Below are positions 33,779 through 50,254 of a DNA stretch of 64,000 nucleotides, piece by piece. How positions within the stretch are numbered: position 1 is the stretch's first letter; each line of letters begins with the position of its first letter. The stretch covers positions 295 through 64,294 of the forward strand of contig DATDVS010000028.1 in the NCBI GenBank assembly GCA_036517535.1, given 5' to 3'. A program made the position numbers and the translations under genes. Origin of the DNA: Minisyncoccota bacterium (GTDB lineage Bacteria; Patescibacteriota; Minisyncoccia; Phycocordibacterales; UBA9973). A model generated the notes under the pieces. That model searched no databases. It had not been told where the DNA came from and saw only the letters and a program-made list of their open reading frames with translations.

Positions 33779-33838
33779 CCTCTCCCTAGCCCTCTCCTTG
33801 GCAAGGAGAGGGGAAAAGCAAGGGGTGAGGTGAATTTT
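33777..33838 (+). repeat. hairpin-plus-RBS repeat, copy B
   Basis: GACCTCTCCCTAG-CCCTCTCCTT-GGC-AAGGAGAGGG-GAAAAGCAAGGGGTGAGGTGAATTTT, followed by the ATG at 33839. Confidence 0.8.
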
Positions 33839-35536
33839 ATGAATCCACAAACCAAAAATTGTCCGAATTGTAAAAAGGACTTTACTATAGAAAGTGAAGA
33901 TTTTAATTTCTATGAGAAAGTAAAAGTCCCTCCGCCGACTTGGTGCCCGCTGTGCCGCCAGCAAAGGCGCTATGCCTGGCGCAACGAGCGCACGCTGTAC
34001 CGCAGAAATTGCGATCTATGCGGCAAATCGACGGTGACCATTTACTCTCCGAATAAACCACACAAGATGTATTGCCAATCCTGCTGGTGGGGTGACGGCT
34101 GGGATCCGGCTTCTTTCGGAGTTGATTTTGACTTTTCCCGCCCATTTTTTGACCAATTTCATGAACTCCAGCTCCGGGTGCCGCGCATGGCCCTTTTGAG
34201 TAAAAACAGCGTAAATTCTGAATACACCAATCACTCCGGAGACGACAAAAATGTTTATCTTTCCTTCGCGGCCTGGTCGGCGGAAGATGTCCTATACAGC
34301 ACCTGGGTTATGAAGTCTCGGGATTGCATGGATTGCAGTTTCATATACGACAAGGGCGAACGCTTGTATGAAGTAATCGACTCCCGCACTTCTTACGAAT
34401 GCCAATACAGTATTTTCCTGAAGGACTGCTCTTCTTGTTATTACTGCTATGATTGCCACGGCTGCAATGAATGCTTTATGTCCTACAATTTACGCAATAA
34501 AAGTTATGTCTGGCGAGGTCAGCAACTAAGCCGGGAAGAATATATGAAAAAGAAGAAAGAGCTTGAGATGACTTCTTTTACAGAACGCCAAGGGCTTTTA
34601 CAAGAGTTCCAAGATACGATAGAGCAAAGTGCCATTCATCGATATGTGGTCTCCGAGCGCAATGTAAACTCTGTCGGCTCTCTTATTTTTGATTGCAAAA
34701 ATGTCAAACAATCCTTTGAGGTGAACGGTGCCGAGGATTGTAAATATATTTACGGGGGCCTGGATATGAAAGATTGCATGGATATATACCATGTCGGCTG
34801 GCATACTACCGAGCTTTGCTATGAACTGCATGGCTGTACACGGGTAGCCAATTGTAAATTCTGCCATCTTTGTTATGACAACAACAGTGTGTCCTACTCT
34901 GACAGTTGCCAGAACAGCCAGAATCTTTTCGGTTGCGTGAGCATTAAAAAAGGCGAATATATGATTTTCAATAAAAAATACAGCAAGGAAGATTACCTGG
35001 CGCTCAAGGAGAAAATTATCGAGCATATGAAGAAAACCGGGGAATACGGGGAATTCTTCCCGCCTGCCATTGCGCCGGTATACTACAACGAAACGCAGGG
35101 TATTCTGTATGATCCATTGACTAAAGAGGAAGTTCTGTCCAAAGGCTGGCATTGGGAGGATAATGTGCCGGGGACAAAAGGCAAAGAAACGATCAGCAAT
35201 AAAGACATCCCGGATAAGATTGAAGATGTGCCCGATACATTCTTGAAAGAAGTTTTTGCCTGCGATGCTTGCTCGAAGAATTACAACATCACCCAAAACG
35301 AGCTTCTGTTTTACCAAAAAGAAAAAATTCCTTTGCCGCGCAAATGCCCGAACTGCAGATACAAAAGGCGTTTTGATCTGCGCCCGCTCCGCAAGCTCTG
35401 GCACAGGGGGTGTATGTGTGACAAATCCGGCCATGACCACGCGGGAATCTGTAAAAATGAATTTGAGACTTCCTACGCTCCGGAGAGGAAAGAGAAAGTC
35501 TACTGCGAGTCCTGCTATAACAAAGAAGTGTATTAA
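33839..35536 (+). CDS. Cys-rich multi-zinc-ribbon protein, family member 2
   Basis: 565 aa from the ATG that follows the shared GGTGAGGTGA RBS; the ORF track begins 9 nt earlier at a GTG. Full complement of N- and C-terminal ribbons. Confidence 0.85.
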   Translation: MNPQTKNCPNCKKDFTIESEDFNFYEKVKVPPPTWCPLCRQQRRYAWRNERTLYRRNCDLCGKSTVTIYSPNKPHKMYCQSCWWGDGWDPASFGVDFDFSRPFFDQFHELQLRVPRMALLSKNSVNSEYTNHSGDDKNVYLSFAAWSAEDVLYSTWVMKSRDCMDCSFIYDKGERLYEVIDSRTSYECQYSIFLKDCSSCYYCYDCHGCNECFMSYNLRNKSYVWRGQQLSREEYMKKKKELEMTSFTERQGLLQEFQDTIEQSAIHRYVVSERNVNSVGSLIFDCKNVKQSFEVNGAEDCKYIYGGLDMKDCMDIYHVGWHTTELCYELHGCTRVANCKFCHLCYDNNSVSYSDSCQNSQNLFGCVSIKKGEYMIFNKKYSKEDYLALKEKIIEHMKKTGEYGEFFPPAIAPVYYNETQGILYDPLTKEEVLSKGWHWEDNVPGTKGKETISNKDIPDKIEDVPDTFLKEVFACDACSKNYNITQNELLFYQKEKIPLPRKCPNCRYKRRFDLRPLRKLWHRGCMCDKSGHDHAGICKNEFETSYAPERKEKVYCESCYNKEVY

Positions 35537-35538: not shown

Positions 35539-35599
35539 AGTTATAAAGTAGAAAGTTCATAAAGTTATAAAGTAAATAAAATGAACTCTGAAACTAAAA
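35539..35599 (+). repeat. 61-bp perfect direct repeat, copy 1 (intergenic motif block plus first 6 codons of member 3)
   Basis: Identical to 37326-37386: AGTTATAAAGTAGAAAGTTCATAAAGTTATAAAGTAAATAAAATGAACTCTGAAACTAAAA. Confidence 0.9.
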
Positions 35600-37323
35600 C
35601 ACATTCGAATATCTCAGTGTCTACGACTTGCCAGAATTGTAAAAAAGATTTCACCATCGAGCCAGATGATTTCTCTTTTTACGAGAAAATAAAGGTCCCG
35701 CCACCGACCTTCTGTCCGGAATGCCGAAGGCAGAGACGGCTTGTTTGGCGGAACGAGCGAACGCTCTATAAAAGGAAGTGCGATTTATGCCAGAAAAACG
35801 TCATTGCGATGTACCATGAATCTGTACCATTTCCGGTGTATTGCCGGGAATGCTGGTATGGCGACGGCTGGGATCCAAAATCATACGCCCGGGAGTACAA
35901 CATGAATAAATCGTTTTTCGAACAATATCACGAATTATCTAATGTTGTCCCTAAACTCGCCCTTTGGCAGAGAAACTCCATAAACTCCGATTACTCGAAC
36001 TATGTTGGTGAGTCCAAAAATGTTTATCTCTCGGCTTCGGTGGTAAAAAATTCGGAAAACATTTTTTATTCAAAATCCATAGATGGATGCAGAGATATTG
36101 TAGATTGCTTTAATATTATCAATGGTTCAGAAAGTTTGTATGAAAATGTTGAAGCGCAAGGGAATTATGATTCGCAATATCTCCTGCTTTGCCGAAGTTG
36201 CCTAGATTCTTATTATTCGGTTGATTGTATAAATTGCAGCAATTGTTTTCTATCTCATAATTTACGCAATAAGAAATTTTGTATCCGCAATAAACAATAC
36301 ACCAAAGAAGATTATTTTAAAGAACTGGAAAAATTTAATTTAAAGAGTCGGACTTCGCGTCAAATTTTACTAAAAGAATTTGAAAAAATAAAAAAGCAGG
36401 CCATTTATCGTTTCGGTAACATAACCAAATGCGTGAATGTTACCGGAAATAATTTGTTAAATGTAAAGAATTCAAAAGATTGTTTTGAAATATACGATAC
36501 TGAAAATTCTAAGTATGGCTACAGAGCCTTTTCACTGAAGGATTGTATGGATTTTGATTACGGGGGTTGGTCCGAGCTTCTTTATGAATACACGACAGGC
36601 GCGCTCAATCACTACAATGTTCATTTTACTTATTCTGCTATGGAGTCGGTCAGAAATGCCGACTATACGGAGTGGTGCAGAAATTGTAGCAATATTTTCG
36701 GTTGCATTTCGCTTAACAATGCCAAGTATATGATTTTAAACAAAGTTTATCCGAAAGAAGAATACATGAAATTAAGAGAACAAATTATCAAACAAATGAG
36801 CGCCACTCTTTTTAAGGATAAAAAAGGGAGGGTTTATAAGTATGGTGAATTTTTCCCGATTGAGCTCTCTCCCTGGGCATACAATGAAACCTTGGCGCAG
36901 GAATTTCACCCCACAACGAAACAGAAGGCGGAAGAAAACGGTTATTCATGGCGAGAGCCAAGTAAAAAAAATTTTGAAATCACAACCCCAGCGGATAAAA
37001 TCCCAGACGACATAGATGATGTAGCTGAAGAAATTATGAGCAAAGTGCTGGGCTGCGCTCACTCGGGAAATTGCAATCATCAATGCACTTCCGCTTTCCG
37101 TATCACGGATTATGAATTGAAATTCTACAAGAAACATGATATTCCCTTGCCGGATAAATGCCCAAATTGCAGATACTATGAAAGAGTGGCAGTTATGCCT
37201 GGATTAAAGTTGTACAAAAGGGTTTGCATGAAATGCAAAGTAGTAGAATTTGAAACTGCGTATGCTCCAGACCGGCCAGAAAAGATTTACTGTGAATCTT
37301 GTTATAATAAAGAAATATACTGA
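35581..37323 (+). CDS. Cys-rich multi-zinc-ribbon protein, family member 3
   Basis: 580 aa paralog with intact second N-terminal ribbon (CDLCQK...VYCRECWYGDGWDP). Confidence 0.85.
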   Translation: MNSETKTHSNISVSTTCQNCKKDFTIEPDDFSFYEKIKVPPPTFCPECRRQRRLVWRNERTLYKRKCDLCQKNVIAMYHESVPFPVYCRECWYGDGWDPKSYAREYNMNKSFFEQYHELSNVVPKLALWQRNSINSDYSNYVGESKNVYLSASVVKNSENIFYSKSIDGCRDIVDCFNIINGSESLYENVEAQGNYDSQYLLLCRSCLDSYYSVDCINCSNCFLSHNLRNKKFCIRNKQYTKEDYFKELEKFNLKSRTSRQILLKEFEKIKKQAIYRFGNITKCVNVTGNNLLNVKNSKDCFEIYDTENSKYGYRAFSLKDCMDFDYGGWSELLYEYTTGALNHYNVHFTYSAMESVRNADYTEWCRNCSNIFGCISLNNAKYMILNKVYPKEEYMKLREQIIKQMSATLFKDKKGRVYKYGEFFPIELSPWAYNETLAQEFHPTTKQKAEENGYSWREPSKKNFEITTPADKIPDDIDDVAEEIMSKVLGCAHSGNCNHQCTSAFRITDYELKFYKKHDIPLPDKCPNCRYYERVAVMPGLKLYKRVCMKCKVVEFETAYAPDRPEKIYCESCYNKEIY

Positions 37324-37325
37324 TT

Positions 37326-37386
37326 AGTTATAAAGTAGAAAGTTCATAAAGTTATAAAGTAAATAAAATGAACTCTGAAACTAAAA
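37326..37386 (+). repeat. 61-bp perfect direct repeat, copy 2
   Basis: Identical to 35539-35599. Confidence 0.9.
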
Positions 37387-39059
37387 AATGTGAAAGCTGC
37401 AGTAAAGATTTCGTCATCGAACCAGACGATTTTGGGTTCTATGAGCAGATGAAGGTTCCGCCGCCAGTATGGTGTCCAGACTGTCGGAGACTGCGCCGCA
37501 TGGCTTGGTACGGTTATAGAATTTTATACAAGCGCAAGTGCGATTTTACCGGAGAAAATATAATCACATTTTATCATCCGGATTTGCCTTATAAAGTTTA
37601 CAAGCAGGACGTCTGGTGGAGTGATAAATGGGACCCAAAAAGCTATGGGAGGGAGTATGATTTTTCTCGGCCATTTTTCGAGCAATATAAAGAATTAATG
37701 GATGAAGTGCCCAAAGCATCACTCCACACGGAATATACCACTATGATCAATAGTGAATATTGCAATGCGGCCAGCTTTCAGAAAAACGGGTATCTTTGCT
37801 TTAAACATATTAAAGGCGAAGACGCTGCATATACCAATGTTGTTTTGAATATAACAAATTGTTTAGACGTGGCGTACTCGGTTGATCTAGATCTTTGTTA
37901 TGAAACGGTTGATGTAGGACATTGTTTCCAATCTTTTTTCGTGCAAGATTGTCATACCTCTCAAAATCTTTATTTTTGCCGAGATTTGGTGAATTGTAGT
38001 AATTGTATAGGTTGTACTTCTTTGCGTAATAAAAGTTATTGTATTTTTAATGAGCAGTTCACTAAAGAAGAATATGAAAAGAAAATGAAGGAATTCGATT
38101 TTGGGTCCATGGCAAATTTACAGAAATTCAAAACAAAAGCATACGAGTTTTCTTTAAAATTTCCGCGGCGAGCGTTAAGGGGCGTAAATAATGTAAATAC
38201 TTCCGGTGAATATGTATATAATTCAAAAAATACGCGTGATGTATACTATGTTTCCGATTCCGAGAATGTGCGGTATGCCCAATTGTTTATTAAAGGCGGG
38301 GCTCATAATTGCCATGATTTTACCGCCTTTGGAACGAGCTCAGAGTGGGTGTATGAAGCAACATGGACTGGATACAATACTTCAAATGTGAAATTTAGCG
38401 TCTGGAATTATCGCAACCACGACACCGAATATACTTTTGGCTGCCACGGTTCTGAATACTTATTTGGCTGCGTCGGATTAAACAAGGGTTCCTATTGTAT
38501 TTTCAATAAGCAATACACCAAGGAGGAATATTTCCCTATGGTAGAAAAAATAAAAAAACAAATGGCTGAAATGCCGTTCGTAGACAGGAGGGGACTGAAG
38601 CACGGCTACGGCAGTCAAATCCCCATTGACTTATGCCCTTGGGCTTATAATGAAACTACCGCTTATGAATTTTTCCCGATAACTAAGGCAGAAGCCCTCT
38701 CCAAAGGCTTTACTTGGCGCGATGCAGACGAAAAAGAATATCTGCCTGCTAGTATGCTAGTACCAGATCATATCAAAGACGTGACGGACGAGGTACTGAA
38801 AGCCGTTTTGAAATGCGAGGCTTGCGGCAAAAATTATCAGATTATCCAAAAAGAACTACAATTCTTACGCCGGTCTAATCTGCCTATCCCGCGACATTGC
38901 CCGCTCTGCCGCGACCGTGCCCGCATCAAGCAAATGAATCCGATGGAGATGTATGACCGCAATTGTGATAAATGCAAAGCCAAAATTCAAACTTCTTACG
39001 CCCCGGACCGCCCGGAGATTGTGTATTGCGAAGATTGCTATAAACAGGAAGTGTACTAG
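37368..39059 (+). CDS. Cys-rich multi-zinc-ribbon protein, family member 4
   Basis: 563 aa paralog. Ends ...RPEIVYCEDCYKQEVY. Confidence 0.85.
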   Translation: MNSETKKCESCSKDFVIEPDDFGFYEQMKVPPPVWCPDCRRLRRMAWYGYRILYKRKCDFTGENIITFYHPDLPYKVYKQDVWWSDKWDPKSYGREYDFSRPFFEQYKELMDEVPKASLHTEYTTMINSEYCNAASFQKNGYLCFKHIKGEDAAYTNVVLNITNCLDVAYSVDLDLCYETVDVGHCFQSFFVQDCHTSQNLYFCRDLVNCSNCIGCTSLRNKSYCIFNEQFTKEEYEKKMKEFDFGSMANLQKFKTKAYEFSLKFPRRALRGVNNVNTSGEYVYNSKNTRDVYYVSDSENVRYAQLFIKGGAHNCHDFTAFGTSSEWVYEATWTGYNTSNVKFSVWNYRNHDTEYTFGCHGSEYLFGCVGLNKGSYCIFNKQYTKEEYFPMVEKIKKQMAEMPFVDRRGLKHGYGSQIPIDLCPWAYNETTAYEFFPITKAEALSKGFTWRDADEKEYLPASMLVPDHIKDVTDEVLKAVLKCEACGKNYQIIQKELQFLRRSNLPIPRHCPLCRDRARIKQMNPMEMYDRNCDKCKAKIQTSYAPDRPEIVYCEDCYKQEVY

Positions 39060-41642: not shown

Positions 41643-41728
41643 TTTTCCACAGGTTTGCTTGTGAGCGAATTAAAATAATATTAAGATTGATAGATGGCCG
41701 ATATTAGTAATTAATAATTATTATAATT

Positions 41729-41908: not shown

Positions 41909-41930
41909 AATTTGAATTAAATAGAAAATA

Positions 41931-41966
41931 AGCAAAAAAGCCCTTGCAATATAGGGCTTTTTTGCT
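41931..41966. terminator. bidirectional rho-independent terminator
   Basis: AGCAAAAAAGCCCT-TGCAATAT-AGGGCTTTTTTGCT, a perfect 14-bp stem. Confidence 0.75.
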
Positions 41967-41994
41967 TGACTTTTACATAAAAATGTGATACACT
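41966..41994 (+). promoter_or_regulatory. sigma70-type promoter with an extended -10
   Basis: TTGACT, 17 nt between hexamers, TGaTACACT. Confidence 0.55.
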
Positions 41995-42070
41995 TGCATT
42001 GTTATCAGGATTGAACCCCTGGTAATCTCTACGAAAAGTTTCGTGGAGTTTGTACATCGAAGGAAGCCAC

Positions 42071-42274
42071 ATGGAAGTCAAGCGACAGGGTGAAATCGCC
42101 TTCTTGCTTTTGAAACATCGCATTCGAAGGGAAGGAGCGACGATCTCGCAGAACGACGCGCGAGAGCTGGGAGACACCGCAAAAGCAATTGGTGTTCCAT
42201 TAGAGGAGCTCAAAGAGTTCGTCAGGCCCCTGCTGCACGACCTCGTCGATGAGTTCCTGTCCACCAAGAAGTAA
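42071..42274 (+). CDS. small hypothetical protein (67 aa)
   Basis: Start taken at Met 8 of ORF 42050-42274, preceded by AAGGAAG 5 nt upstream. Helical-looking sequence with no motif recognised. Confidence 0.45.
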   Translation: MEVKRQGEIAFLLLKHRIRREGATISQNDARELGDTAKAIGVPLEELKEFVRPLLHDLVDEFLSTKK

Positions 42275-42276
42275 TC

Positions 42277-42374
42277 TTGGAAAACTAGGGTGGAGCTTCG
42301 GCTCCCTAAAAGGGTAATTGCATCCCTCGCTTCGGCGAACAGATGCAGAACAAGAACCTAACCCCGTTTTCCAA
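42277..42374 (+). ncRNA. candidate structured RNA (three-way junction), class unknown
   Basis: Closing helix TTGGAAAAC/GTTTTCCAA plus GGGT/ACCC. Hairpin GGAGC-UUCG-GCUCC. Hairpin TGCATC..TCGC-UUCG-GCGA..GATGCA. Confidence 0.4.
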
Positions 42375-42381
42375 AACACAC

Positions 42382-42424
42382 CGGACTGGTTCAGCGCTTG
42401 CGCTGGGCCGGTCCGTTTCTACTT
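42382..42424 (+). terminator. GC-rich hairpin plus T-rich tail
   Basis: CGGACTGG-tt-CAGCG-CTTG-CGCTG-gg-CCGGTCCG, followed by TTTCTACTTTT. Confidence 0.6.
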
Positions 42425-42448
42425 TTACTTCAAAAATTTATAAATAAA

Positions 42449-42457
42449 TGATACAAT
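42449..42457 (+). promoter_or_regulatory. extended -10 element (TGaTACAAT)
   Basis: Lies 9 nt upstream of the ATG at 42467. Confidence 0.45.
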
Positions 42458-42466
42458 ACTACAAAT

Positions 42467-44491
42467 ATGGAGCTCCCGGCATTGCCTATAAATAGGGATA
42501 TTACTTACCTCGGTTTTACCACTTACCGCGACAAGAACCAGCTTTTCGGCATAAAGCGCAAGGATAGGCGCCAGCATGTTTATATTCTCGGAAAGTCCGG
42601 TACCGGTAAATCCGTCCTGATGTTCAACATGATTATCCAGAATATCCTGAACGGCGAGGGCGTGTGCGTGGTGGACCCGCACGGCGAGCTCGTCGAGGGC
42701 GTGCTCTCTGCTATCCCGCCGCATCGCATGAAGGACGTGATTTATTTCAATCCAGCCGATACGGAATACCACATCGGCTTTAACGTCCTCGAATTGATCG
42801 ACCCGAAGTACAAGCACCTGGTGGCCTCGGGGCTCATGGGCATATTTACGAAAATTTGGGCCAACGCCTGGTCGGCCCGTATGGAATATATTTTAAATAA
42901 CTGCATTCTCGCCCTCCTCGACACCCCAGGCACCACGCTCCTCGGCATCCCCCGCATGCTGGTGGACAAGGATTACCGCCAGAAAATAATTTCTAATTTA
43001 AAAGACCCGGTGATCAAGGCTTTCTGGGTCCACGAGTACGAGGCCTGGCAGGATAAATTCAGAAACGAAGCCATCGCGCCGATTCAAAACAAGGTCGGGC
43101 AATTCCTTTCTACCTCAATCATCCGCAACGTCGTTGGCCAGTCGAAAAGCACCATCAACATTTTTGACATAATGAACGAGGGCAAGATTTTCCTCATAAA
43201 CGTTTCCAAAGGACGCATCGGCGAGGACAACTCGGCCCTACTCGGAGGCATGATCATTACCAAGATCCAGCTTGCCGCCATGGAGCGCGTGCGCATACCG
43301 GAGGAGGACCGTCGGGACTTTTATTTATACGTCGACGAATTCCAAAACTTCGTTACCGATGCCTTCGCTGGCATCCTCTCGGAGGCCCGAAAATATCGCC
43401 TGAACCTCACCGTGGCGCACCAGTATACTGCTCAGCTTGTCTCGGACAAGAGCTCGGCCGTGCGCGATGCCGTATTCGGCAACGTGGGTACGATGATCGT
43501 TTTTCGCGTAGGCGCGGACGACGCTGATTTCCTAGAAAAAGAATTTGAACCGGAGTTTACTCCGCAGGACATCGTGAACCTGCCGAACTACAAGATATAC
43601 CTGAAGCTCATGATCGACGGAGTGACCTCGCGGCCTTTTTCCGCCAAGACTTTGCCGCCGATACTAAAGCCGAACGAAAAACACATCGAAGAAGAAGTCA
43701 TCCGTTCTTCTCGGGCGCTCTACTGTAAATCCAAAGAAGTAGCCGAGCGGGAGATCAACGACTGGAGCGGGATGTCGCTCGGCGAGGATAATGCCGTCGG
43801 CAATATTGAGAGATTCGATGCGATATGTTCGGTTTGCCGCAAGCCGACCACGGTGCCTTTCAAGCCCGAGCCCGGCCGGCCGGTGTATTGCAAGGACTGC
43901 ATAGCCAAGATGAAGTCCGGCGAGATAAAGCCGATAGAAGGCTCCATGAATCAAATCAAGCGCGATGAAACTAAATTTTACAAGCCGCTTGCCGATCTGG
44001 GCATCGAATTTCAGCAAAAAGCGCCGGAGAGGGAAGGCGAGAATAGAAAGGCTTTCAAGCCCAGAGAAAACAGAGAGAATTTCGCCTTAAAAGAAGTTCT
44101 CAAAAAAACTCTCGGCACGGCCTCTGTTCCCGTGGAGCCAGTTGCCCCCACCCCGCCTCCCGCAATTTCACTTGATTCGCTTAAATCTAAAATGAATCCT
44201 TCGCAAAGCTCAGGACCAAAGGACCGCGGAGCCAGCCATGCGGACATGGATAAGCTGAAGAATTTTATTGAAGAGAAAGTTATCGAACCCGAGAAAGCTA
44301 CGCCGGAGCAGCAAAATTCCTCGCGCTTTACCCGTCAAAATCCGCCGGGCTCCGACGCGACTCAGAATTCTGCTGCTCCGGCTCCGCGACCCGATTCACC
44401 ACCCAAGCCTAACCCTTCGACAGACTCAGGGTCTTCGGCTAATAAGCCTCGGGAAGTTCCGGAGGACGTGCTAAGAAAAATTCTAGAATAA
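42467..44491 (+). CDS. TraD/TrwB/VirD4-like (type IV coupling-protein-type) P-loop NTPase, no TM segment, C-terminal zinc ribbon and Pro-rich tail
   Basis: 674 aa. Walker A ILGKSGTGKS, VVDPHGE, Walker [12 protein letters not shown], and AHQY. Ribbon CSVCRKPTTVPFKPEPGRPVYCKDC at nt 43826-43900. Confidence 0.75.
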   Translation: MELPALPINRDITYLGFTTYRDKNQLFGIKRKDRRQHVYILGKSGTGKSVLMFNMIIQNILNGEGVCVVDPHGELVEGVLSAIPPHRMKDVIYFNPADTEYHIGFNVLELIDPKYKHLVASGLMGIFTKIWANAWSARMEYILNNCILALLDTPGTTLLGIPRMLVDKDYRQKIISNLKDPVIKAFWVHEYEAWQDKFRNEAIAPIQNKVGQFLSTSIIRNVVGQSKSTINIFDIMNEGKIFLINVSKGRIGEDNSALLGGMIITKIQLAAMERVRIPEEDRRDFYLYVDEFQNFVTDAFAGILSEARKYRLNLTVAHQYTAQLVSDKSSAVRDAVFGNVGTMIVFRVGADDADFLEKEFEPEFTPQDIVNLPNYKIYLKLMIDGVTSRPFSAKTLPPILKPNEKHIEEEVIRSSRALYCKSKEVAEREINDWSGMSLGEDNAVGNIERFDAICSVCRKPTTVPFKPEPGRPVYCKDCIAKMKSGEIKPIEGSMNQIKRDETKFYKPLADLGIEFQQKAPEREGENRKAFKPRENRENFALKEVLKKTLGTASVPVEPVAPTPPPAISLDSLKSKMNPSQSSGPKDRGASHADMDKLKNFIEEKVIEPEKATPEQQNSSRFTRQNPPGSDATQNSAAPAPRPDSPPKPNPSTDSGSSANKPREVPEDVLRKILE

Positions 44492-44492
44492 A

Positions 44493-46253
44493 ATGCAGTC
44501 CGAAACTAAAATCTGCCAAAATTGCAAGAAAGATTTTACGATAGACTCGGAGGATTTTAATTTCTATGAAAAGATCAAGGTCCCTCCACCGACTTTTTGT
44601 AATCTTTGCCGAGCGCAGAGGCGGCTATCATTCAGAAATGAAAGAAAACTTTTCAAAATAAAGGACGCCTTAACAGGCAAGGAAATTTTTTCTACCTATC
44701 CAGCTGAAAGCGGCAGGAAGATAATTACTCGCGATGCGTGGCTCAGTGACAATTGGGATCCCATGGATTATGAACAGGATTATGATTTCTCTCGCTCGTT
44801 TTGGGAGCAACAGCAAGAGCTCGAGAAGAAAGTTTACATGTACAACTTTAATGTCATAAGGATGGTAAATAGTCCTTATGCATTTAATGCCACAGCGCTT
44901 AAAAACAGCTACCTAGTCGTTAATTCAAGCTATTCCGAGGATTGTATGTACGGCAATGCGATTGATCGCTCTAAGGACTGCGTAGACAATTCGCATATCA
45001 ATGAATCTGAACGCTGCTATGAATGCTTCTGGTTGCGTAAATGCTACCAATGCTATTTCACTATAATGTCAGCTGATTGTCGCAATATGTGGTTTTCTAG
45101 GGATTGCCTGGGTTGCAATGACTGCTTTGGTTGTGTCAATTTGCGTAAAAAATCATATTGTATTTTCAATAAGCAATACACTAAAGGTGAGTATGAAAAG
45201 GAAATTTATAGAATGAAGCTCCATACAAATTCTGGGTTAAAAGAAGCCAGGGAAAAAGCCAGAGAATTTTGGGCGACGCAAATCACCCGGCACCAACAAG
45301 GCGTAAGAAATTTAAATTCAACTGGGTCTTATGTTACTGACTGCAAAAATGTGAATGATAGTTATTTAATTAGGGAAAGTGAGAACATGCGCTACTGTCA
45401 GTATTTGCAGGTGCCCGGGAACAAAGACAATTATGATGTCAGTAATTGGGGTGAAGATACGGAGCTGTGTTATGAATGCATAGAATGCGGTCAGAGTTCG
45501 TATAACAATAAATTTTCTAGGAACTGCTGGCCAGCGTGCCGGAATCTAGAATATTGCGTGCATCTTTTTAGCTCCTCTGACTGCTTTGGTTGTGTTGGGC
45601 TCAAAAAAGCCCAATATTGCATTTTTAACAAGCAATACACAAAAGAAGAATATAAGAAGTTGGTAGAAAAAATTAAAAAACACATGGATGAGATGCCCCA
45701 TATAGATTCCCAAGGATTAGTCTATAAATACGGAGAGCTTTTCCCCATGGAATTTTCACCATTCGGATACAATAATACTTTAGCCGCACAGCATTTTCTT
45801 TTGTCCAAAGCAGAAGCGGAAGCAAAAAATTACCAGTGGATAGAAACCGAGAGAGGGGAGTATAAAACCACCATAAAGGCCGGAGAGTTGCCCGAAGAAA
45901 TAGAAAATACCGCCAATAATATTTTGAAAGAAGTGATAGAGTGCGAATCCTGCAATAACCCTTACCGGATCTTAGAAAACGAGTTAATTTTCTTAAAACG
46001 GGAAAAGATCCCTGTTCCCCGTATCTGCAGTGAATGCAGGCATGAACGCAGAATAAATGATCGACTGAAACTATTTCTATATGAACGTACATGTAAATGT
46101 GCCGGGGTTTCCGACGAAACAGGGAAATATAAAAATACGGTAGCTCATCATCACAAAGATGCTCCATGTGGAGAGGTTTTTAAAACCGGCTACTCACCCG
46201 ACTCACCGCAGATAGTCTATTGCGAAAAGTGTTATCAGGCGGAAGTATACTAG
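44493..46253 (+). CDS. Cys-rich multi-zinc-ribbon protein, family member 5
   Basis: 586 aa paralog. The ATG lies 1 nt after the ATPase stop. Confidence 0.85.
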   Translation: MQSETKICQNCKKDFTIDSEDFNFYEKIKVPPPTFCNLCRAQRRLSFRNERKLFKIKDALTGKEIFSTYPAESGRKIITRDAWLSDNWDPMDYEQDYDFSRSFWEQQQELEKKVYMYNFNVIRMVNSPYAFNATALKNSYLVVNSSYSEDCMYGNAIDRSKDCVDNSHINESERCYECFWLRKCYQCYFTIMSADCRNMWFSRDCLGCNDCFGCVNLRKKSYCIFNKQYTKGEYEKEIYRMKLHTNSGLKEAREKAREFWATQITRHQQGVRNLNSTGSYVTDCKNVNDSYLIRESENMRYCQYLQVPGNKDNYDVSNWGEDTELCYECIECGQSSYNNKFSRNCWPACRNLEYCVHLFSSSDCFGCVGLKKAQYCIFNKQYTKEEYKKLVEKIKKHMDEMPHIDSQGLVYKYGELFPMEFSPFGYNNTLAAQHFLLSKAEAEAKNYQWIETERGEYKTTIKAGELPEEIENTANNILKEVIECESCNNPYRILENELIFLKREKIPVPRICSECRHERRINDRLKLFLYERTCKCAGVSDETGKYKNTVAHHHKDAPCGEVFKTGYSPDSPQIVYCEKCYQAEVY

Positions 46254-46287
46254 GTATAACAGATTTGAACGGCCGTCTAAAAGTGTT

Positions 46288-48033
46288 ATGAATCAAGAAA
46301 CTAAAAACTGCCAGAATTGCAAAAAGGATTTCACGATCGAGCCGGAGGATTTTAATTTCTATGAAAAGATCAAAGTTCCACCGCCGACGTTTTGTCCGGA
46401 ATGTCGGGCGATTCGGCGATTGATTTGGCGTAATGAAAGATCGTTATATCATAATATCTGTGCTTTTTCGGGTAAGAAAATAATCTCAATGTTCTCTCCG
46501 GAAACAAATCTAGTAGTATACGACCGTGATATCTGGTGGAGCGATAAATGGGACCCCACATCCTATGGCCAGGAGTATGATTTTTCCAAACCATTTTTCA
46601 CGCAATTTCAAGAATTGATGTCGAAAGTCCCTCTTGCTAATTTAGGTAATACCAACAGCCCAAAAAGTGAATATGGCAACCATAATGCAGACTGCAAAAA
46701 TTGTTATTTGGTATATGCATCGTTTAGCAACGAAAACTGCTCTTATTCGAATGGCTTGGTCAATACAAAAGATTCATTAGACTTATACAAAGTTACTAAA
46801 TCCGAGCAATGCTACAACAGCACTCTGTGTGCAAGCTGCTACAACACTCATTTTTCCTATGACAGCGATGAATGCATCGATTCGATGTTTTTGACGTCGT
46901 GTCTAGGATTGCATAATTGCCTAGGATGCATTAATTTACGCCATAAACGCTATTGTATTTTCAATGAGCAATATACCCAAGAAGAATACGAAAGAAGGGC
47001 GGCCAGCTATAATCTGGGTAGTTATGAAGGCCTAAAAAGATTTGAGGAAGAATATAAGAATTTCATAAAAGATCAGTTCCGGCGCTTTGCATTTATTTTT
47101 AAATCTATAAATGTCACAGGGGATAATATTATGTTCGCTAAAAATAGTAGAATGCTTTTCGACAGCTATGGAGATGTGGAAAACTGCAGTTATATTACCC
47201 ACGCAGTCAATATTAAAGACAGCCAGGATGCTTATGGTACCGGCGCTAAAATGGAATTGTTGTACGAAGGCGTGGATTGCGGGATTAATGCTTACAATAT
47301 GCATTTCTGCGTTTTAGCTCATAGTTGTGTCGATGTGGATTATACATATATGTGTTTTGGTTCAAGCAAGCTATTTGGCTGTATCGGCTTGCGCAATCAG
47401 GAATATTGTATTTTAAACAAGAAATATTCAAAAGAAGAGTATGAAAAATTACGAGCAAAGATCATCAAACACATGAATACTATGCCGTATGTAGACAAAC
47501 AGAGCAGAGTATATAAATACGGAGAATTCTTTCCGGCCGAACTCTCGCCCTTTGCATACAGTGAAACTATCGTGGAAGAGTATTATCCTCTCAATAAGAA
47601 AAAAGCTTTAGATTATGGGCTCAAAATAAAAGAAAAAGTGTCCAGAGACTATAAAATAGATTTAGCAACAGAAGAATTACCCGACCATATAAAAGATACC
47701 AATGAGAGCATAGCAGGAAAGGTAGTTGAATGCATGCATAAAGGTACTTGCAAGGAACAATGCACTGAGGCATTTAAGATTACTGCCGAAGAATTACAAT
47801 TTTATAAAAAAATAAATATAGCCCTACCTCGGCTATGCCCGAACTGCCGGCACTTCCAGAGGCTTGCGAAACGCAATCCCCTGAAGCTCTGGCACAGGGC
47901 GTGTATGTGTGAGAAGGAAGGCCATGACCATGACAAGGTTAAACCTTGTCCAAATGAATTTGAAACCAGCTATGCGCCGGAGAGGCCGGAGATAATTTAC
48001 TGTGAGAAATGCTATCAGAAGGAAGTTTACTGA
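46288..48033 (+). CDS. Cys-rich multi-zinc-ribbon protein, family member 6
   Basis: 581 aa paralog. Ends ...RPEIIYCEKCYQKEVY. Confidence 0.85.
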   Translation: MNQETKNCQNCKKDFTIEPEDFNFYEKIKVPPPTFCPECRAIRRLIWRNERSLYHNICAFSGKKIISMFSPETNLVVYDRDIWWSDKWDPTSYGQEYDFSKPFFTQFQELMSKVPLANLGNTNSPKSEYGNHNADCKNCYLVYASFSNENCSYSNGLVNTKDSLDLYKVTKSEQCYNSTLCASCYNTHFSYDSDECIDSMFLTSCLGLHNCLGCINLRHKRYCIFNEQYTQEEYERRAASYNLGSYEGLKRFEEEYKNFIKDQFRRFAFIFKSINVTGDNIMFAKNSRMLFDSYGDVENCSYITHAVNIKDSQDAYGTGAKMELLYEGVDCGINAYNMHFCVLAHSCVDVDYTYMCFGSSKLFGCIGLRNQEYCILNKKYSKEEYEKLRAKIIKHMNTMPYVDKQSRVYKYGEFFPAELSPFAYSETIVEEYYPLNKKKALDYGLKIKEKVSRDYKIDLATEELPDHIKDTNESIAGKVVECMHKGTCKEQCTEAFKITAEELQFYKKINIALPRLCPNCRHFQRLAKRNPLKLWHRACMCEKEGHDHDKVKPCPNEFETSYAPERPEIIYCEKCYQKEVY

Positions 48034-48742: not shown

Positions 48743-48750
48743 GGTATCTA

Positions 48751-48759
48751 TGATATAAT
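48751..48759 (+). promoter_or_regulatory. extended -10 element (TGaTATAAT)
   Basis: Lies 19 nt upstream of the ATG at 48779. Confidence 0.4.
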
Positions 48760-48778: not shown

Positions 48779-50254
48779 ATGCCCAAGCCTAATCGAGTGC
48801 AGATAATCAAATACGGGCCGCCGCCGCCGGAACTGCCTGTCTTCGGTAAGGTAAAGCCGGAAGACGCGTCTTTCATTGGGCGTACCAACTATGTGGCCGC
48901 TCTTGAAGAGAAGAAATTTATTTTCGGCATCAAGCGCGTCGATCGTCGCCGGCACCTGTACATCATCGGCAAGTCGGGGGTAGGGAAGTCCAAGCTGCTC
49001 GAGCTCCTCATCCGGCAGGATATCCAGTATGGGCATGGGCTGTGCCTGATCGACCCGCACGGCGATGAATTCAAAAATATTCTGGATTTTGTACCCAAGG
49101 AGCGTATTGAGGATGTCTGTGTTATTGATCCGACCGATGTGGACTTTCCGGCCTCTTTTAATCCTCTGGCCAATGTGGACCCGGCATTTAAATTTATCTT
49201 GACCCAGGGGCTAATCGAAGTTTTCCAGAAACAGTTCGGAGCAAATTGGACGCCGCGCCTCGAGCACGTTTTCAGATTTACCTGTTTGGCGCTCCTGGAC
49301 TATCCGCATGCCACCATGCGCGGGATGATCTCGATGCTGACCGACCGAAATTACAGGCAGAAAGTGGTGGAGTATATTACCGACGACATGGTCAAACGCT
49401 TCTTCGCTATCGAATTCGCCGACTGGTCGGAGAAATTTGACACTGATGCCATCATCCCGCTGGTCAACAAGCTCGGCCAGTTTCTCTCCGATCCGCTTCT
49501 GCGCAATATCTTCGGCCAGAAAGAAAACAAAATAGATGTCAGTAAACTCATGAATGAGAAGAAGATAATTCTCATCAATATCTCCAAGGGGCGACTCGGT
49601 GAAGAAAACTCCTCATTTCTAGGATCCATCTTTCTGACTAAAATCAAACAGGCGGGGATGGAGCGCGCTGGCATGCCGGAGAGCGCCCGGACCGACTTTT
49701 ACCTATACGTGGACGAGTTCCAGAACGTGGTGACCCAAACATTTGAAAATATTTTATCGGAAGCGAGAAAGTATGCCCTTAACTTAACCATAGCTCATCA
49801 ATATGTGGGCCAGATCATCACTAAAGTACATCAGGCTGTGCTCGGTAACTGCGGATCGATTATTACCTTCCGTATCGGCGGCGAGGATGCGGTGAAAATG
49901 AAGCCGGAATTCGCTCCACTTTTCGATGTGAAAGATATGATCAACCTGGCGATGACGGAGTTTTATATCAAGATGACCATCGACGGGGAGTCCTACGATC
50001 CGTTTTCCGCCGAGACTCTGAGAGTTCTGCCGCCTACCCACCCTTCCTATCAAGAGGAAATAATCGCCGCTTCGCACCGGAAATATACGATACCGAAAGA
50101 TGCCGCGGCAAAACTTATCGCCGAAGAGGAGGCGACCATCATTCGCAGTGCGGAAGAAAAAGCCATAATAGAGGGTCGGGCAAAACGCCTATCTAAAGGG
50201 CGGGGCGAAGGCGAAGAGGCAAAATCTTCACAAGAAGCGGAACCTATGATATAG
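48779..50254 (+). CDS. TraD/TrwB/VirD4-like P-loop NTPase, second paralog, no TM segment and no zinc ribbon
   Basis: 491 aa. Walker [18 protein letters not shown], Walker [12 protein letters not shown], and AHQY. Collinear with 42467-44491 over the ATPase core. Confidence 0.75.

What the first reader, a model, noticed from the sequence alone, without database searches (positions are those of the whole stretch)
42467..46253. VirD4/TraD-like ATPase ends 1 nt before a family member and carries the same type of zinc ribbon
ATPase 1 (42467-44491) stops 1 nt before the ATG of member 5 (44493), so the two are probably co-transcribed and translationally coupled. After the P-loop core, the ATPase has the ribbon CSVCRKPTTVPFKPEPGRPVYCKDC (nt 43826-43900) and then a Pro/Ser-rich tail. 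The CxxC-x(12-14)-P-x-(V/I)YC-xx-C pattern matches the second ribbon in the terminal modules of the family. Examples are CDLCQKNVIAMYHESVPFPVYCRECW in member 3 and ...YAPERPEIIYCEKCY at the C-termini. A shared terminal domain between a motor ATPase and its neighbouring paralogs suggests a common binding partner or direct recognition.
Basis: partly seen in the sequence, partly recalled or inferred. Interest (0 to 1): 0.75.

Follow-up and report, generated by a model that had tools for sequence, protein, structure and literature searches.

The report
Split coupling ATPase with zinc-ribbon partners
In this ultra-small (CPR/Paceibacteria) bacterium, a membrane-less VirD4/TraD-type motor ATPase carries a widespread zinc-ribbon module that also caps both ends of a neighbouring six-copy protein family, which offers testable partners for the "orphan" coupling ATPases of these bacteria, although nothing shows that the ribbon itself links the two.

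Summary
ORF 42467-44491 is a TrwB/VirD4-like ATPase ("ATP1"). It stops 1 nt before the ATG of a 586-aa gene and carries CSVCRKPTTVPFKPEPGRPVYCKDC (nt 43826-43900).

The ribbon is a curated domain (PF23477/TIGR04272, "CxxC-x17-CxxC"). Profile comparison shows it is the same class as ribbons 2 and 4 of the six-copy family ("FAM"), and not the class of ribbons 1 and 3.

The ribbon is generic, however. Each FAM end is a copy of an abundant standalone two-ribbon mini-protein (PF13451+PF23477). The ATPase ribbon resembles that mini-protein more than it resembles the FAM ribbons.

Across 160 related loci:
- FAM genes are strongly enriched beside the ATPase or embedded between it and its ribbon-less paralog ATP2, in several different gene orders.
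- Most ribbon-bearing ATPases nevertheless have no FAM neighbour.
- FAM neighbours persist where the ATPase has lost its ribbon.

New findings: the ATPase is the motor half of a split coupling protein. The membrane half ("TM499", window 15845-17323) is adjacent in other lineages and fused in one. Here both ATPases and all six FAM genes sit inside the grpE-dnaK-dnaJ operon.

Verdict: a real, conserved, undescribed association. The ribbon-mediated recognition idea is unproven.

The parts
42467..44491 (+). ATP1: the motor half (nucleotide-binding plus all-alpha domains) of a split type-IV coupling protein (T4CP). It has no TM segment and a C-terminal extension.
   Evidence: Pfam TrwB_AAD_bind 5e-11, T4SS-DNA_transf 7e-9, DUF87 and TraG-D_C. 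PDB TrwB E 6e-7. 33% identity to a bona fide actinobacterial T4CP. Foldseek top hits are DotL and TrwB, from a low-confidence model. More than 8000 CPR orthologs, and all of the top 120 carry PF23477.
43826..43900 (+). Class-B treble-clef zinc ribbon, CxxC-x17-CxxC (aa 454-478).
   Evidence: PF23477 1.7e-12 and TIGR04272 9.1e-13. hhalign to the standalone module 99.2%, E 1.1e-19. hhalign to FAM ribbon 2 97.1% and ribbon 4 94.0%.
43973..44011 (+). Conserved post-ribbon motif KFYKPLADLGIEF (aa 503-515).
   Evidence: Nearly invariant in orthologs. An 'IGIEF' core is kept even in lineages that have lost the ribbon.
44450..44488 (+). Conserved extreme C-terminus REVPEDVLRKILE, a predicted amphipathic helix.
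   Evidence: Nearly invariant across orthologs. AF2 helix at 666-673.
42429..42457 (+). Promoter-like site (TTCAAA-17-TACAAT, TG-extended) ending 10 nt before the ATP1 ATG.
   Evidence: Consensus scan only.
42382..42415 (+). Terminator-like 15-bp hairpin plus T-run that separates the dnaK side from ATP1.
44493..46253 (+). FAM member 5. Ribbons 1, 3 and 4 are present and ribbon 2 is degenerate. It starts 1 nt after the ATP1 stop.
   Evidence: AF2 pLDDT 83.8, pTM 0.86. No PDB fold match. No Pfam or NCBIfam match.
46288..48033 (+). FAM member 6.
32120..33778 (+). FAM member 1, directly after grpE.
33830..35536 (+). FAM member 2, with ribbon 2 intact.
35581..37323 (+). FAM member 3, with all four ribbons intact.
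37368..39059 (+). FAM member 4, with a canonical CxxC-x17-CxxC ribbon 4.
48779..50254 (+). ATP2: a ribbon-less, tail-less paralog of ATP1 (42-43% identity, Walker A and B intact), followed by dnaJ.
   Evidence: Paired with ATP1 in about 40 of 81 loci.
15845..17323 (+). TM499: inferred membrane/N-terminal half of the split coupling protein (two N-terminal TM helices plus a domain of about 400 aa).
   Evidence: A homolog lies directly upstream of the ATPase in 33 of the 80 other ATPase-centred loci, with a gap of 100 nt or less in 24 of 42 TM499-ATPase pairs across both locus sets. Colinear match to the N-terminal ~395 aa of an 812-aa T4CP, E 3.3e-9. Natural fusion in L059. No Pfam, NCBIfam or PDB match.

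Best explanation
ATP1 is the cytoplasmic motor half of a split type-IV coupling protein (T4CP, VirD4/TraD/TrwB family) that is near-universal in Paceibacteria-like CPR bacteria.

Proposed parts of the machine:
- The membrane/N-terminal half is a separate gene, TM399-490 aa in size and here called TM499 (window 15845-17323).
- A ribbon-less paralog, ATP2 (48779-50254), is its usual partner.
- ATP1 alone carries a flexible C-terminal extension made of a Zn ribbon (PF23477/TIGR04272), an 'ADLGIEF' motif, a disordered linker and a conserved amphipathic C-terminus. I read this extension as a recruitment tail. It would work like the C-terminal tails of TraD (which binds TraM) and DotL (which binds DotN, IcmSW and LvgA).

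FAM proteins are cytoplasmic, with no signal peptide. Each is built as a two-ribbon module, then a duplicated Cys-rich beta-rich core, then a second two-ribbon module. Each module is a copy of a widespread standalone PF13451+PF23477 mini-protein.

The most likely role of FAM proteins is as accessory clients or adaptors of this ATPase machine. They are co-expressed from the same operons; here ATP1-FAM5-FAM6 form one unit with its own promoter-like site. The shared class-B ribbon is a general Zn-dependent docking module that both partners inherited independently. It may bind a common ligand, but it is not a private recognition code.

Shown: T4CP homology, absence of a TM segment, ribbon homology, conserved linkage and embedding of FAM genes, and the split and fusion evidence for TM499. 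Inferred: physical interaction, the role of the tail, the ligand, and the direction of any transport.
For: T4CP identity:
- Pfam and NCBIfam hits and TrwB in the PDB.
- 33% identity to an Embleya plasmid T4CP flanked by PrgI, VirB4-like, relaxase-like and NlpC/P60 genes.
- Foldseek top hits DotL, TrwB and HerA.
- A 2025 preprint counts 5,713 VirD4-type T4CPs in 2,918 CPR genomes, only 148 of them near virB4, and suggests exaptation.

Split protein:
- The ATP1 P-loop is at aa 42 and there is no hydrophobic segment.
- TM499 abuts the ATPase in 24 of 42 pairs and lies nearby in 33 of the 80 other ATPase-centred loci.
- TM499 aligns colinearly to the N-terminal half of an 812-aa T4CP.
- L059 encodes an 866-aa fusion: TM499 profile aa 33-425 (E 6e-48) plus ATPase profile aa 421-852 (E 1e-143).

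Tail: conserved motifs in orthologs. The ribbon is present in 70 of 81 loci.

FAM linkage:
- FAM lies within 10 kb in 30 of 81 ATPase-centred loci. An ATPase lies within 10 kb in 7 of 24 FAM-centred loci of 15 kb or more. The binomial P is 1e-4 or lower if the chance rate is 5%.
- FAM is embedded between ATPase or TM499 genes in 27 loci.
- At least four different gene orders occur: ATP1-F-ATP2, ATP2-F-ATP1, several F then ATP1, and TM180-F-F-ATP2-F-F.
- ATP1-to-FAM gaps of -1 to +6 nt occur in 8 other species.
- A FAM relic lies between ATP1 and ATP2 in L004.

Ribbon:
- hhalign results.
- This ribbon class is exclusive to ATP1 and FAM among 30,311 ORFs in 1.42 Mb.
- Zn binding by CxxC-x17-CxxC proteins has been shown in M. 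mazei (PMC12704099).
Against: - There is no direct evidence of any physical interaction.
- 43 of 70 ribbon-bearing ATPase loci have no FAM within 10 kb, and 17 of 24 long FAM loci have no ATPase within 10 kb. FAM is therefore neither necessary for the ATPases nor confined to them.
- The paralog type that follows ATP1 is not fixed.
- The ATP1 ribbon is closer to the generic module than to FAM ribbons.
- FAM adjacency survives loss of the ATPase ribbon.
- FAM orthologs are well conserved (65-83% identity), which is unlike typical secreted effectors.
- The AF2 model of ATP1 is poor (pLDDT 57).
- The TM499-T4CP homology rests on two short blocks plus one fusion.
- Part of the linkage signal comes from closely related genomes that share synteny.
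Confidence: 0.55

Rival explanations
1. Coincidental sharing. The ribbon is a generic zinc-binding module picked up independently. FAM is functionally unrelated to the ATPases and accumulates near them only through inherited synteny or a permissive insertion hot-spot for tandem paralogs.
For: - The module is widespread and standalone elsewhere (PMC12704099).
- The ATP1 ribbon is nearer to the generic form than to FAM ribbons.
- Most ribbon-bearing ATPases lack FAM neighbours, and most FAM loci lack ATPases.
- FAM copy number varies from 0 to 4 at each of two fixed sites in an otherwise constant backbone.
Against: - FAM is embedded between ATPase or TM499 genes in at least four different gene orders across deep lineages.
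- Enrichment holds in both the ATPase-centred and the FAM-centred surveys.
- Gaps of 0-6 nt are conserved.
- Both ribbon classes are absent from all other ORFs in 1.42 Mb.
Confidence: 0.22
2. Effector reading. ATP1, ATP2 and TM499 still act as the coupling protein of the Patescibacteria monoderm-type T4SS. FAM proteins are its translocated substrates, delivered to host cells, and are recognised through the ATP1 tail.
For: - T4CP ancestry and a membrane partner.
- CPR T4SS genes are usually encoded far from t4cp.
- FAM is a multi-copy, variable-number family beside the receptor ATPase.
- T4CP tails recruit substrates in the TraD and DotL systems (established knowledge).
Against: - There are no T4SS channel genes within the 64 kb window.
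- FAM orthologs are highly conserved and are tightly folded Zn proteins.
- The preprint reports that t4cp was non-essential for epibiotic growth in Southlakia whereas other T4SS genes were essential.
- FAM is absent near many ATPases.
Confidence: 0.12
3. Nucleic-acid handling. The ribbons bind DNA or RNA. ATP1 and ATP2 are DNA or RNA translocases, as FtsK, HerA and TrwB are. FAM proteins would be nucleic-acid-binding accessory factors that load or present the substrate.
For: - The T4CP/FtsK-HerA fold.
- A conserved basic linker (CR-x-x-RR ... KRK) lies between ribbons A and B.
- The ATP1 ribbon-plus-tail segment is basic, pI 8.9.
- Standalone modules sit beside ECF sigma factors.
- The M. mazei authors suggest a transcription role.
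Against: - FAM as a whole is near-neutral, pI 5.8-8.2.
- No nuclease, relaxase or recombinase genes are linked.
- The position next to a sigma factor fits a protein-binding (anti-sigma-like) role equally well.
- There is no experimental nucleic-acid binding for this domain.
Confidence: 0.12
4. Proteostasis reading. The ATPases and FAM act together with DnaK, DnaJ and GrpE, for example in client delivery, unfolding or zinc-protein handling. This would explain their insertion into the chaperone operon.
For: - The backbone is grpE-FAM(x0-4)-regulator-dnaK-ATP1-FAM(x0-4)-ATP2-dnaJ in about 22 loci.
- Other ATPase-chaperone arrangements occur in L045, L054, L064 and L076.
- CutA1 (a divalent-ion tolerance protein) recurs next to FAM or the ATPases in 16 loci.
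Against: - 56 of 81 ATPase loci have no DnaK within 10 kb, and in those TM499 is the usual neighbour.
- ATP1 has its own promoter-like site and an upstream terminator-like hairpin.
- There is no CIRCE element or other shared operator.
- ClpB is present separately.
- The chaperone-operon context is largely confined to one clade.
Confidence: 0.07
5. Anti-phage defence. The locus is a defence system built on a HerA/mad8-like ATPase with variable accessory genes.
For: PADLOC hits to mad8 (E 2e-14 for ATP1, 8e-12 for ATP2) and weak HerA hits. The accessory family varies in copy number.
Against: - FAM has no PADLOC hit.
- The ATPases are near-universal, about 80% identical between species, and lie among housekeeping genes.
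- FAM is practically absent from viral contigs.
- No other MADS components were seen.
Confidence: 0.03

Closest known systems
Type IV coupling proteins (VirD4/TraD/TrwB), especially monoderm MPF_FATA-type T4CPs
   Same: ATP1 has the P-loop nucleotide-binding domain with an inserted all-alpha domain and a TraG-D_C region. It is 33% identical to an actinobacterial plasmid T4CP that lies in a PrgI/VirB4/relaxase cluster. The best structural matches are DotL and TrwB.
   Different: - There is no N-terminal TM domain in cis. It appears to be supplied by a separate gene, TM499.
- The ATPase is duplicated into a ribbon-bearing and a ribbon-less paralog.
- It is not encoded with T4SS channel or relaxase genes.
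- It carries a PF23477 zinc ribbon.
- Its scores are far below the NCBIfam TraD and VirD4 equivalog cut-offs.
C-terminal recruitment tails of T4CPs: F-plasmid TraD binding TraM; Legionella DotL binding DotN (a zinc protein), IcmS/W and LvgA
   Same: ATP1 has a long, flexible C-terminal extension beyond the motor, with short conserved motifs and a conserved extreme C-terminus. DotL is the top Foldseek hit. The analogy itself rests on established knowledge and is not a test.
   Different: There is no sequence similarity between the tails. Here a zinc ribbon is fused into the tail itself. The binding partners are unknown.
Standalone PF13451+PF23477 two-ribbon mini-proteins (e.g. Pusillibacter WP_187028406) and CxxC-x17-CxxC small proteins of Methanosarcina mazei
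   Same: The ATP1 ribbon aligns to the second half of the mini-protein (99.2%, E 1.1e-19). Each FAM end aligns to the whole protein (97.7% and 97.6%, E about 2e-12). Zn binding has been shown for the archaeal members (PMC12704099).
   Different: Those are free proteins of about 60-95 aa of unknown function, in Oscillospiraceae often directly downstream of an ECF sigma factor. Here the module is fused to a motor ATPase (second half only) or duplicated at both ends of a ~580-aa protein.
HerA/FtsK-type hexameric translocases, including defence-associated HerA and MADS mad8
   Same: Same ASCE P-loop superfamily, with weak HMM and fold matches.
   Different: The matches are weaker than those to T4CPs. 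There are no HAS-barrel, NurA or Sir2 partners. The genomic context is housekeeping.

Membership tests
T4CP (VirD4/TraD/TrwB) | P-loop NBD homologous to TrwB/VirD4, with Walker A and B | tested here: met
   PF10412 5e-11, PF02534 7e-9, PF12696 8e-6. TrwB 1e9r E 6e-7. 33% identity over about 390 aa to a plasmid T4CP. GKSGTGKS and [11 protein letters not shown] are present.
T4CP (VirD4/TraD/TrwB) | All-alpha domain inserted in the NBD | tested here: met
   The TrwB_AAD_bind match spans aa 32-349. AF2 predicts an all-helical block at about 113-237 with pLDDT about 65-84. Foldseek matches to DotL and TrwB cover 265-313 columns. The model as a whole is low-confidence.
T4CP (VirD4/TraD/TrwB) | N-terminal transmembrane anchor in the same polypeptide | tested here: not met
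   Walker A starts at aa 42 and there is no hydrophobic segment. The anchor is inferred to be supplied in trans by TM499.
T4CP (VirD4/TraD/TrwB) | Encoded with T4SS channel (VirB4/VirB6) and/or relaxase genes | tested here: not met
   Every annotated neighbour in the 64-kb window is a housekeeping gene. Published count: only 148 of 5,713 CPR T4CPs lie near virB4.
T4CP (VirD4/TraD/TrwB) | Score above the curated NCBIfam TraD/VirD4 cut-offs | tested here: not met
   TIGR03743 47 bits against 366; NF045973 43 bits against 250.
T4CP (VirD4/TraD/TrwB) | Hexameric, substrate-coupling ATPase activity at a secretion channel | not testable with these tools
   Needs biochemistry or cryo-EM.
PF23477 zf_Tbcl_2 / TIGR04272 CxxC-x17-CxxC domain | Two CxxC knuckles 17 residues apart, with an HMM score above the curated cut-off | tested here: met
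   ATP1: C454-x2-C457-x17-C475-x2-C478, 47.2 bits against 27 and 47.7 bits against 36.
PF23477 zf_Tbcl_2 / TIGR04272 CxxC-x17-CxxC domain | The same criterion applied to FAM ribbons 2 and 4 | tested here: inconclusive
   By single-sequence score they fall below cut-off: 23.1-23.6 bits against 27, and 18.5 bits against 36. By profile comparison they are related: hhalign 94-98% to the ATP1 ribbon and 93% (ribbon 2) or 53% (ribbon 4) to the standalone family. Ribbon 2 has lost its Cys residues in 4 of the 6 window paralogs.
PF23477 zf_Tbcl_2 / TIGR04272 CxxC-x17-CxxC domain | Binds zinc | not testable with these tools
   Shown by ICP-MS for two M. mazei members (PMC12704099). Not shown for these proteins.
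Two-ribbon module PF13451 (zf_Tbcl) + PF23477 | Class-A ribbon immediately followed by a class-B ribbon, alignable end to end with the standalone protein | tested here: met
   FAM N-module 97.7% (78 columns, E 2.1e-12). FAM C-module 97.6% (83 columns, E 2.6e-12). Ribbon 1 against ribbon 3 gives 99.0%, and ribbon 2 against ribbon 4 gives 97.9%. ATP1 has only the class-B half.
Anti-phage defence (MADS mad8 / HerA systems) | ATPase matches a defence model and lies with the system's other components in a variable island | tested here: inconclusive
   ATP1 and ATP2 match mad8 at 2e-14 and 8e-12, while FAM has no hit. No other components were found among the proteins scanned. The context is a core chaperone and ribosomal region. 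The neighbours were not scanned exhaustively against PADLOC.

The most novel reading that the evidence does not exclude
Paceibacteria-like CPR bacteria possess a previously undescribed, membrane-anchored machine derived from a split coupling protein: TM499, sometimes TM180, ATP2 and ATP1. Its dedicated clients or adaptors are the four-ribbon FAM proteins. Recognition would go through the shared two-ribbon/class-B zinc module and the ATP1 tail. This would make the machine an exapted T4CP that handles zinc-ribbon proteins, for export to host cells or for a proteostasis or nucleic-acid task. It would also explain the roughly two 'orphan' T4CPs per CPR genome.
Probability: 0.25. Interest if true: 0.8.

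Novelty: new variant of a known kind. Interest (0 to 1): 0.58.

Why it matters
CPR/Patescibacteria genomes encode about two VirD4-type coupling ATPases each. These almost never lie next to a type IV secretion system, and their role is an open question (bioRxiv 10.1101/2025.01.22.634366).

This locus gives that question concrete, testable handles:
- The ATPases are motor-only halves, with a separately encoded membrane half (TM499).
- One paralog carries a zinc-ribbon recruitment-type tail.
- A large family with no Pfam or NCBIfam match and only "hypothetical protein" annotation is repeatedly embedded in the same operons. It has four ribbons and a core with no match among solved structures.

The locus also gives the widespread but function-less PF13451+PF23477 mini-protein a first fused context, on a motor ATPase and at both ends of a scaffold.

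If the association is functional, it defines a new accessory module for T4CP-derived motors in reduced-genome symbionts. If it is not, the ribbon sharing is only domain shuffling of a common zinc module.

Tried and rejected
- **FAM by sequence and structure.** FAM has no match in Pfam, NCBIfam or PADLOC. The FAM profile against PDB sequences gave only marginal LIM-domain hits to ribbon 4 (E 0.02), which I treat as a generic treble-clef resemblance. Foldseek of a confident FAM model found nothing in the PDB (best E 8.7) and only ribbon-sized hits in BFVD.
- **Fe-S idea for the FAM core.** The CxxCxxC strings in the core are not conserved between paralogs; only C211 and C367 are invariant. I rejected an Fe-S cluster.
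- **AF2 of ATP1.** The model was poor (pLDDT 57), so nothing about ribbon docking is claimed. No multimer prediction was available.
- **Mobile-element or phage origin.** FAM is practically absent from 2.9 M viral contigs. Plasmid relatives of ATP1 are at most 39% identical and sit in unrelated contexts.
- **Shared heat-shock operator.** No CIRCE element is present.
- **RNA upstream of ATP1.** The stretch is very stable (z -6.1) but has no Rfam hit and is not conserved in 80 loci.
- **Fixed paralog pairing.** The FAM copy that follows ATP1 is member-5 type only in the closest relatives.
- **TM499.** No match in Pfam, NCBIfam or the PDB.
- **Unused search.** I did not run the 1.84-billion-protein representative search. 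ATP1 and FAM orthologs would have filled its 150-row output, and it carries no annotation.
- **Literature.** Searches for PF13451, zf-trcl, or Patescibacteria+VirD4+DnaK found nothing relevant.

Full report
**1.

ORF 42467-44491 (+, 674 aa) ends with TAA at 44489-44491. One base follows, and the ATG at 44493 opens a 586-aa ORF that runs to 46253. The ribbon CSVCRKPTTVPFKPEPGRPVYCKDC is aa 454-478, which is nt 43826-43900. It lies after a P-loop core (Walker A GKSGTGKS at aa 42-49, Walker [12 protein letters not shown]) and before a Pro/Ser-rich tail.

The ORF's N-terminus matches its orthologs, so the start codon is sound. The organism is a Candidatus Paceibacterota (CPR/Patescibacteria) MAG: identical and near-identical proteins carry that name.

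**2. What the ATPase is**

Pfam gives TrwB_AAD_bind (5e-11), T4SS-DNA_transf (7e-9), DUF87 and TraG-D_C. NCBIfam gives only sub-threshold TraD, VirD4 and CedD matches. TrwB is the only PDB sequence hit.

The core is 33% identical to an 812-aa T4CP on an Embleya plasmid. That gene lies between PrgI/VirB3-like and VirB4-like genes on one side and relaxase-like and NlpC/P60 genes on the other. A low-confidence AF2 model (pLDDT 57) still retrieves DotL, TrwB, HerA and Cag-beta as its best folds.

The protein is therefore a coupling-protein (T4CP) homolog, but it lacks the N-terminal membrane anchor. A second copy, ATP2 (48779-50254, 42-43% identical, Walker motifs intact), lacks both the ribbon and the tail.

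A 2025 preprint counted 5,713 VirD4-type T4CPs in 2,918 CPR genomes. Only 148 were near virB4, and the authors raised exaptation as a possibility. ATP1 and ATP2 fit that description.

**3. The ribbon is a curated, generic domain**

It matches PF23477 (zf_Tbcl_2, 47.2 bits against a cut-off of 27) and TIGR04272 ("CxxC-x17-CxxC", 47.7 bits against 36). All 120 best ATP1 orthologs carry it, and sources already name them "CxxC-x17-CxxC domain-containing protein". Members of this domain family in Methanosarcina mazei are small proteins shown to bind zinc (PMC12704099).

A tblastn search with the ribbon found a 92-aa Pusillibacter protein that is PF13451 (3e-25) followed by PF23477 (4e-19). That mini-protein has more than 7,700 clusters in the large protein database, all with the same two-domain architecture. 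In Oscillospiraceae it lies 30-60 nt downstream of an ECF-type sigma factor, in several different wider contexts.

**4. The family (FAM)**

Six paralogs are present: 32120-33778, 33830-35536, 35581-37323, 37368-39059, 44493-46253 and 46288-48033. They are 32-43% identical to each other. They have no Pfam or NCBIfam match and are annotated only as "hypothetical protein", and there are more than 7,900 relatives.

The architecture is ribbon 1 plus ribbon 2, then a duplicated Cys-rich beta-rich core (each half ends ...FGC..L....YCI.NKQYTKEEY plus a helix), then ribbon 3 plus ribbon 4.

| hhalign comparison | Probability | E-value |
|---|---|---|
| Ribbon 1 vs ribbon 3 | 99.0% | 3.7e-18 |
| Ribbon 2 vs ribbon 4 | 97.9% | 3.8e-13 |
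| ATP1 ribbon vs ribbon 2 | 97.1% | 5.9e-11 |
| ATP1 ribbon vs ribbon 4 | 94.0% | 1.4e-7 |
| ATP1 ribbon vs ribbon 1 | 16% | 0.0016 |
| ATP1 ribbon vs ribbon 3 | 2.6% | 0.018 |
| FAM N-terminal module vs standalone mini-protein | 97.7% | 2.1e-12 |
| FAM C-terminal module vs standalone mini-protein | 97.6% | 2.6e-12 |
| ATP1 ribbon vs second half of the mini-protein | 99.2% | 1.1e-19 |

However, the ATP1 ribbon matches the generic mini-protein better than it matches any FAM ribbon. ATP1 and FAM independently carry pieces of one common module; they do not share a private domain.

Ribbon 2 is degenerate in 4 of the 6 window paralogs and intact in only 36 of 88 surveyed members. AF2 gives a confident FAM model (pLDDT 83.8, pTM 0.86). 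It has no PDB fold match, and in the viral library only ribbon-sized matches.

**5. Is the adjacency conserved?**

The ATPase-centred survey covers 80 GTDB species loci plus the window:
- 70 of 81 loci have a ribbon-bearing ATPase.
- About 40 have both ATPase paralogs.
- 30 have FAM within 10 kb.
- 21 have a FAM gene abutting an ATPase (gap under 150 nt).
- The ATP1-to-FAM gap is -1 to +6 nt in 8 other species.

Several gene orders occur:
- ATP1-F(1-4)-ATP2 in close relatives.
- ATP1-ATP2 with no FAM (L004, L012, L014, L016, L018, L019). L004 keeps a 53-aa FAM relic between the two.
- ATP2-F(0-2)-ATP1 in deeper lineages.
- Five or six FAM genes followed by ATP1 (L031, L035).
- TM180-F-F-ATP2-F-F in L055.

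FAM is embedded between ATPase or TM499 genes in 27 loci.

The reciprocal FAM-centred survey used 79 metagenome loci seeded with distant FAMs. Of 24 loci that are 15 kb or longer, 7 have an ATPase within 10 kb. The binomial P is about 1e-4 at a 5% chance rate. The other 17 do not, so FAM also lives elsewhere in the genome.

Among 30,311 ORFs in 1.42 Mb, both ribbon classes occur only on ATP1, on FAM, or on FAM fragments.

Against ribbon-specific coupling:
- 43 of 70 ribbon-bearing ATPase loci lack FAM nearby.
- FAM abuts the ribbon-less ATP2 in both orders.
- ATP1-type proteins have lost the ribbon (L055) or carry a degenerate one (L057) and still sit among FAM genes.
- The paralog type that follows ATP1 is not fixed.

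**6. New context found**

(a) Chaperone operon. In this window and about 22 related loci, the genes lie inside the chaperone operon. The order is RpoA ... GrpE (31468), FAM x4, a PaaX-like regulator (39104-39628, minus strand), DnaK (39735), ATP1, FAM x2, RsmE (minus strand), ATP2, DnaJ (50295). Other ATPase-chaperone arrangements occur in L045, L054, L064 and L076. There is no CIRCE element. ATP1 has its own promoter-like site and an upstream terminator-like hairpin.

(b) TM499. In 33 of the 80 other ATPase-centred loci, mostly ones without the DnaK context, a 440-490-aa protein lies just upstream of the ATPase. I call it TM499. It has two N-terminal TM helices. The gap to the ATPase is 100 nt or less in 24 of 42 TM499-ATPase pairs across both locus sets. 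The window copy is at 15845-17323.

The TM499 profile aligns colinearly with the N-terminal ~395 aa of the Embleya T4CP and ends exactly where the ATP1 homology begins (E 3.3e-9). L059 encodes an 866-aa natural fusion: TM499 profile aa 33-425 (E 6e-48) plus ATPase profile aa 421-852 (E 1e-143). The CPR coupling protein therefore appears to be split.

(c) TM180. A further small membrane protein, TM180, lies between TM499 and ATP2 in about 11 loci.

(d) CutA1. CutA1 recurs beside FAM or the ATPases in 16 loci.

**7. Mechanism**

The best-supported reading (confidence about 0.55) is a TM499-anchored, T4CP-derived motor made of ATP1 and ATP2.

Only ATP1 carries a flexible tail, made of the ribbon, KFYKPLADLGIEF, a linker and REVPEDVLRKILE. 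I infer that this tail recruits partners. The analogy is with the tails of TraD and DotL, which is established knowledge and was not tested here.

FAM proteins are co-expressed clients or adaptors. The shared ribbon is a general zinc-dependent docking module that may bind a common ligand.

What is shown: homology, domain architecture, linkage statistics, and the split and fusion evidence. What is inferred: any physical contact, the ligand, and the direction of transport.

The rivals are coincidental sharing of a generic ribbon, a secreted-effector model, nucleic-acid handling, a DnaK-linked proteostasis role, and phage defence. They are weighed separately in this report.

**8. Novelty and verdict**

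The ATPase-ribbon fusion is already auto-annotated, and CPR "orphan" T4CPs have been noted in the literature. I did not find the following in the searchable literature:
- the split architecture with TM499;
- the ATP1/ATP2 pairing;
- the four-ribbon FAM family and its repeated embedding in these operons;
- the insertion into the chaperone operon.

This is a new variant of a known kind.

Noticed in passing
window 31468-51389: Both T4CP-like ATPases and all six FAM genes are inserted into the heat-shock operon. The order is GrpE (31468-32070), FAM x4, a PaaX_M-like regulator (39104-39628, minus strand), DnaK (39735-41642), ATP1, FAM x2, RsmE (48089-49060, minus strand), ATP2, DnaJ (50295-51389). 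About 22 other species share this backbone, with 0-4 FAM copies at each of two sites. No HrcA gene or CIRCE element was found.
   Followed up: partly
window 15845-17323 (+); L027-L080 upstream of the ATPases: TM499 is a ~490-aa protein with two N-terminal TM helices and no Pfam, NCBIfam or PDB match. It lies directly upstream of the ATPase in 33 of 80 other loci. It is colinear with the N-terminal half of a full-length T4CP and is fused to the ATPase in L059:111-2708 (866 aa). This points to a split coupling protein.
   Followed up: yes
L027, L032, L034, L036, L045, L050, L052, L055, L057, L098, L151 (between TM499 and ATP2): A conserved small membrane protein of about 175-215 aa (TM180) has the C-terminal motif ...AIxEADxLVDxxLKxxGxxGExMADRL...WxAHRxRNxLVHTPG... 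No homolog was found in this window.
   Followed up: partly
L005, L011, L012, L014, L016, L022-L024, L035, L040, L043, L057, L098, L106, L138, L145: A CutA1 divalent-ion-tolerance protein (PF03091, E 3.7e-17) recurs immediately beside FAM genes or between the two ATPases. This is suggestive, given that FAM proteins are zinc- and cysteine-rich (29-36 Cys each).
   Followed up: partly
window 42275-42425 (+): A 151-nt GC-rich stretch just upstream of the ATP1 promoter-like site folds very stably (-65.2 kcal/mol, z -6.1). It has two UUCG-loop hairpins and a 15-bp terminator-like stem. It has no Rfam match and no similarity in the 80 related loci.
   Followed up: partly
L083:2842-3120; L084-L093 and L095 (gene at about 4001-4282); not L094: The standalone PF13451+PF23477 mini-protein of Oscillospiraceae lies 30-60 nt downstream of an ECF-type sigma factor (Sigma70_r2 plus r4_2) in several wider contexts. 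This is the classical position of an anti-sigma partner and hints that the module binds protein.
   Followed up: partly
L004:11392-11550: A 53-aa ORF encodes only a FAM C-terminal ribbon 4 (KLWHRSCMCDKENHFHGEGKCEVEFETSYAPERPEIVYCEKCYQQEVY). It lies between ATP1 and ATP2 in a genome that otherwise has no FAM nearby, so it is either a relic of gene loss or a mini-gene.
   Followed up: no
window 48089-49060 (-) and 48779-50254 (+): The longest ORFs of rsmE and ATP2 overlap by about 280 nt. The RsmE Pfam match starts near ORF residue 124, so rsmE probably starts at an internal Met (MKIHRF..., about nt 48742). That would leave a very short divergent spacer before ATP2.
   Followed up: no
window 22932-27015 (+): Three consecutive large ORFs (532, 412 and 425 aa) have no Pfam match. 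The middle one has a weak FtsA/actin-like NCBIfam hit (E 1e-3). They were not examined further.
   Followed up: no
ATP1 orthologs in L042, L044, L053, L056, L059, L064, L068, L072, L074, L075, L080: A second type of ATP1 C-terminus ends in a conserved ...(V/I)I(K/N/Q)PGE(T/A/S)(V/I)(K/T)F-COOH motif in place of the amphipathic EDVLRKILE helix. The ribbon is retained in both tail types.
   Followed up: no
window 41731-41968: A small TM ORF of about 59 aa lies right after dnaK. It is followed by a perfect bidirectional terminator-like hairpin (41929-41968).
   Followed up: no
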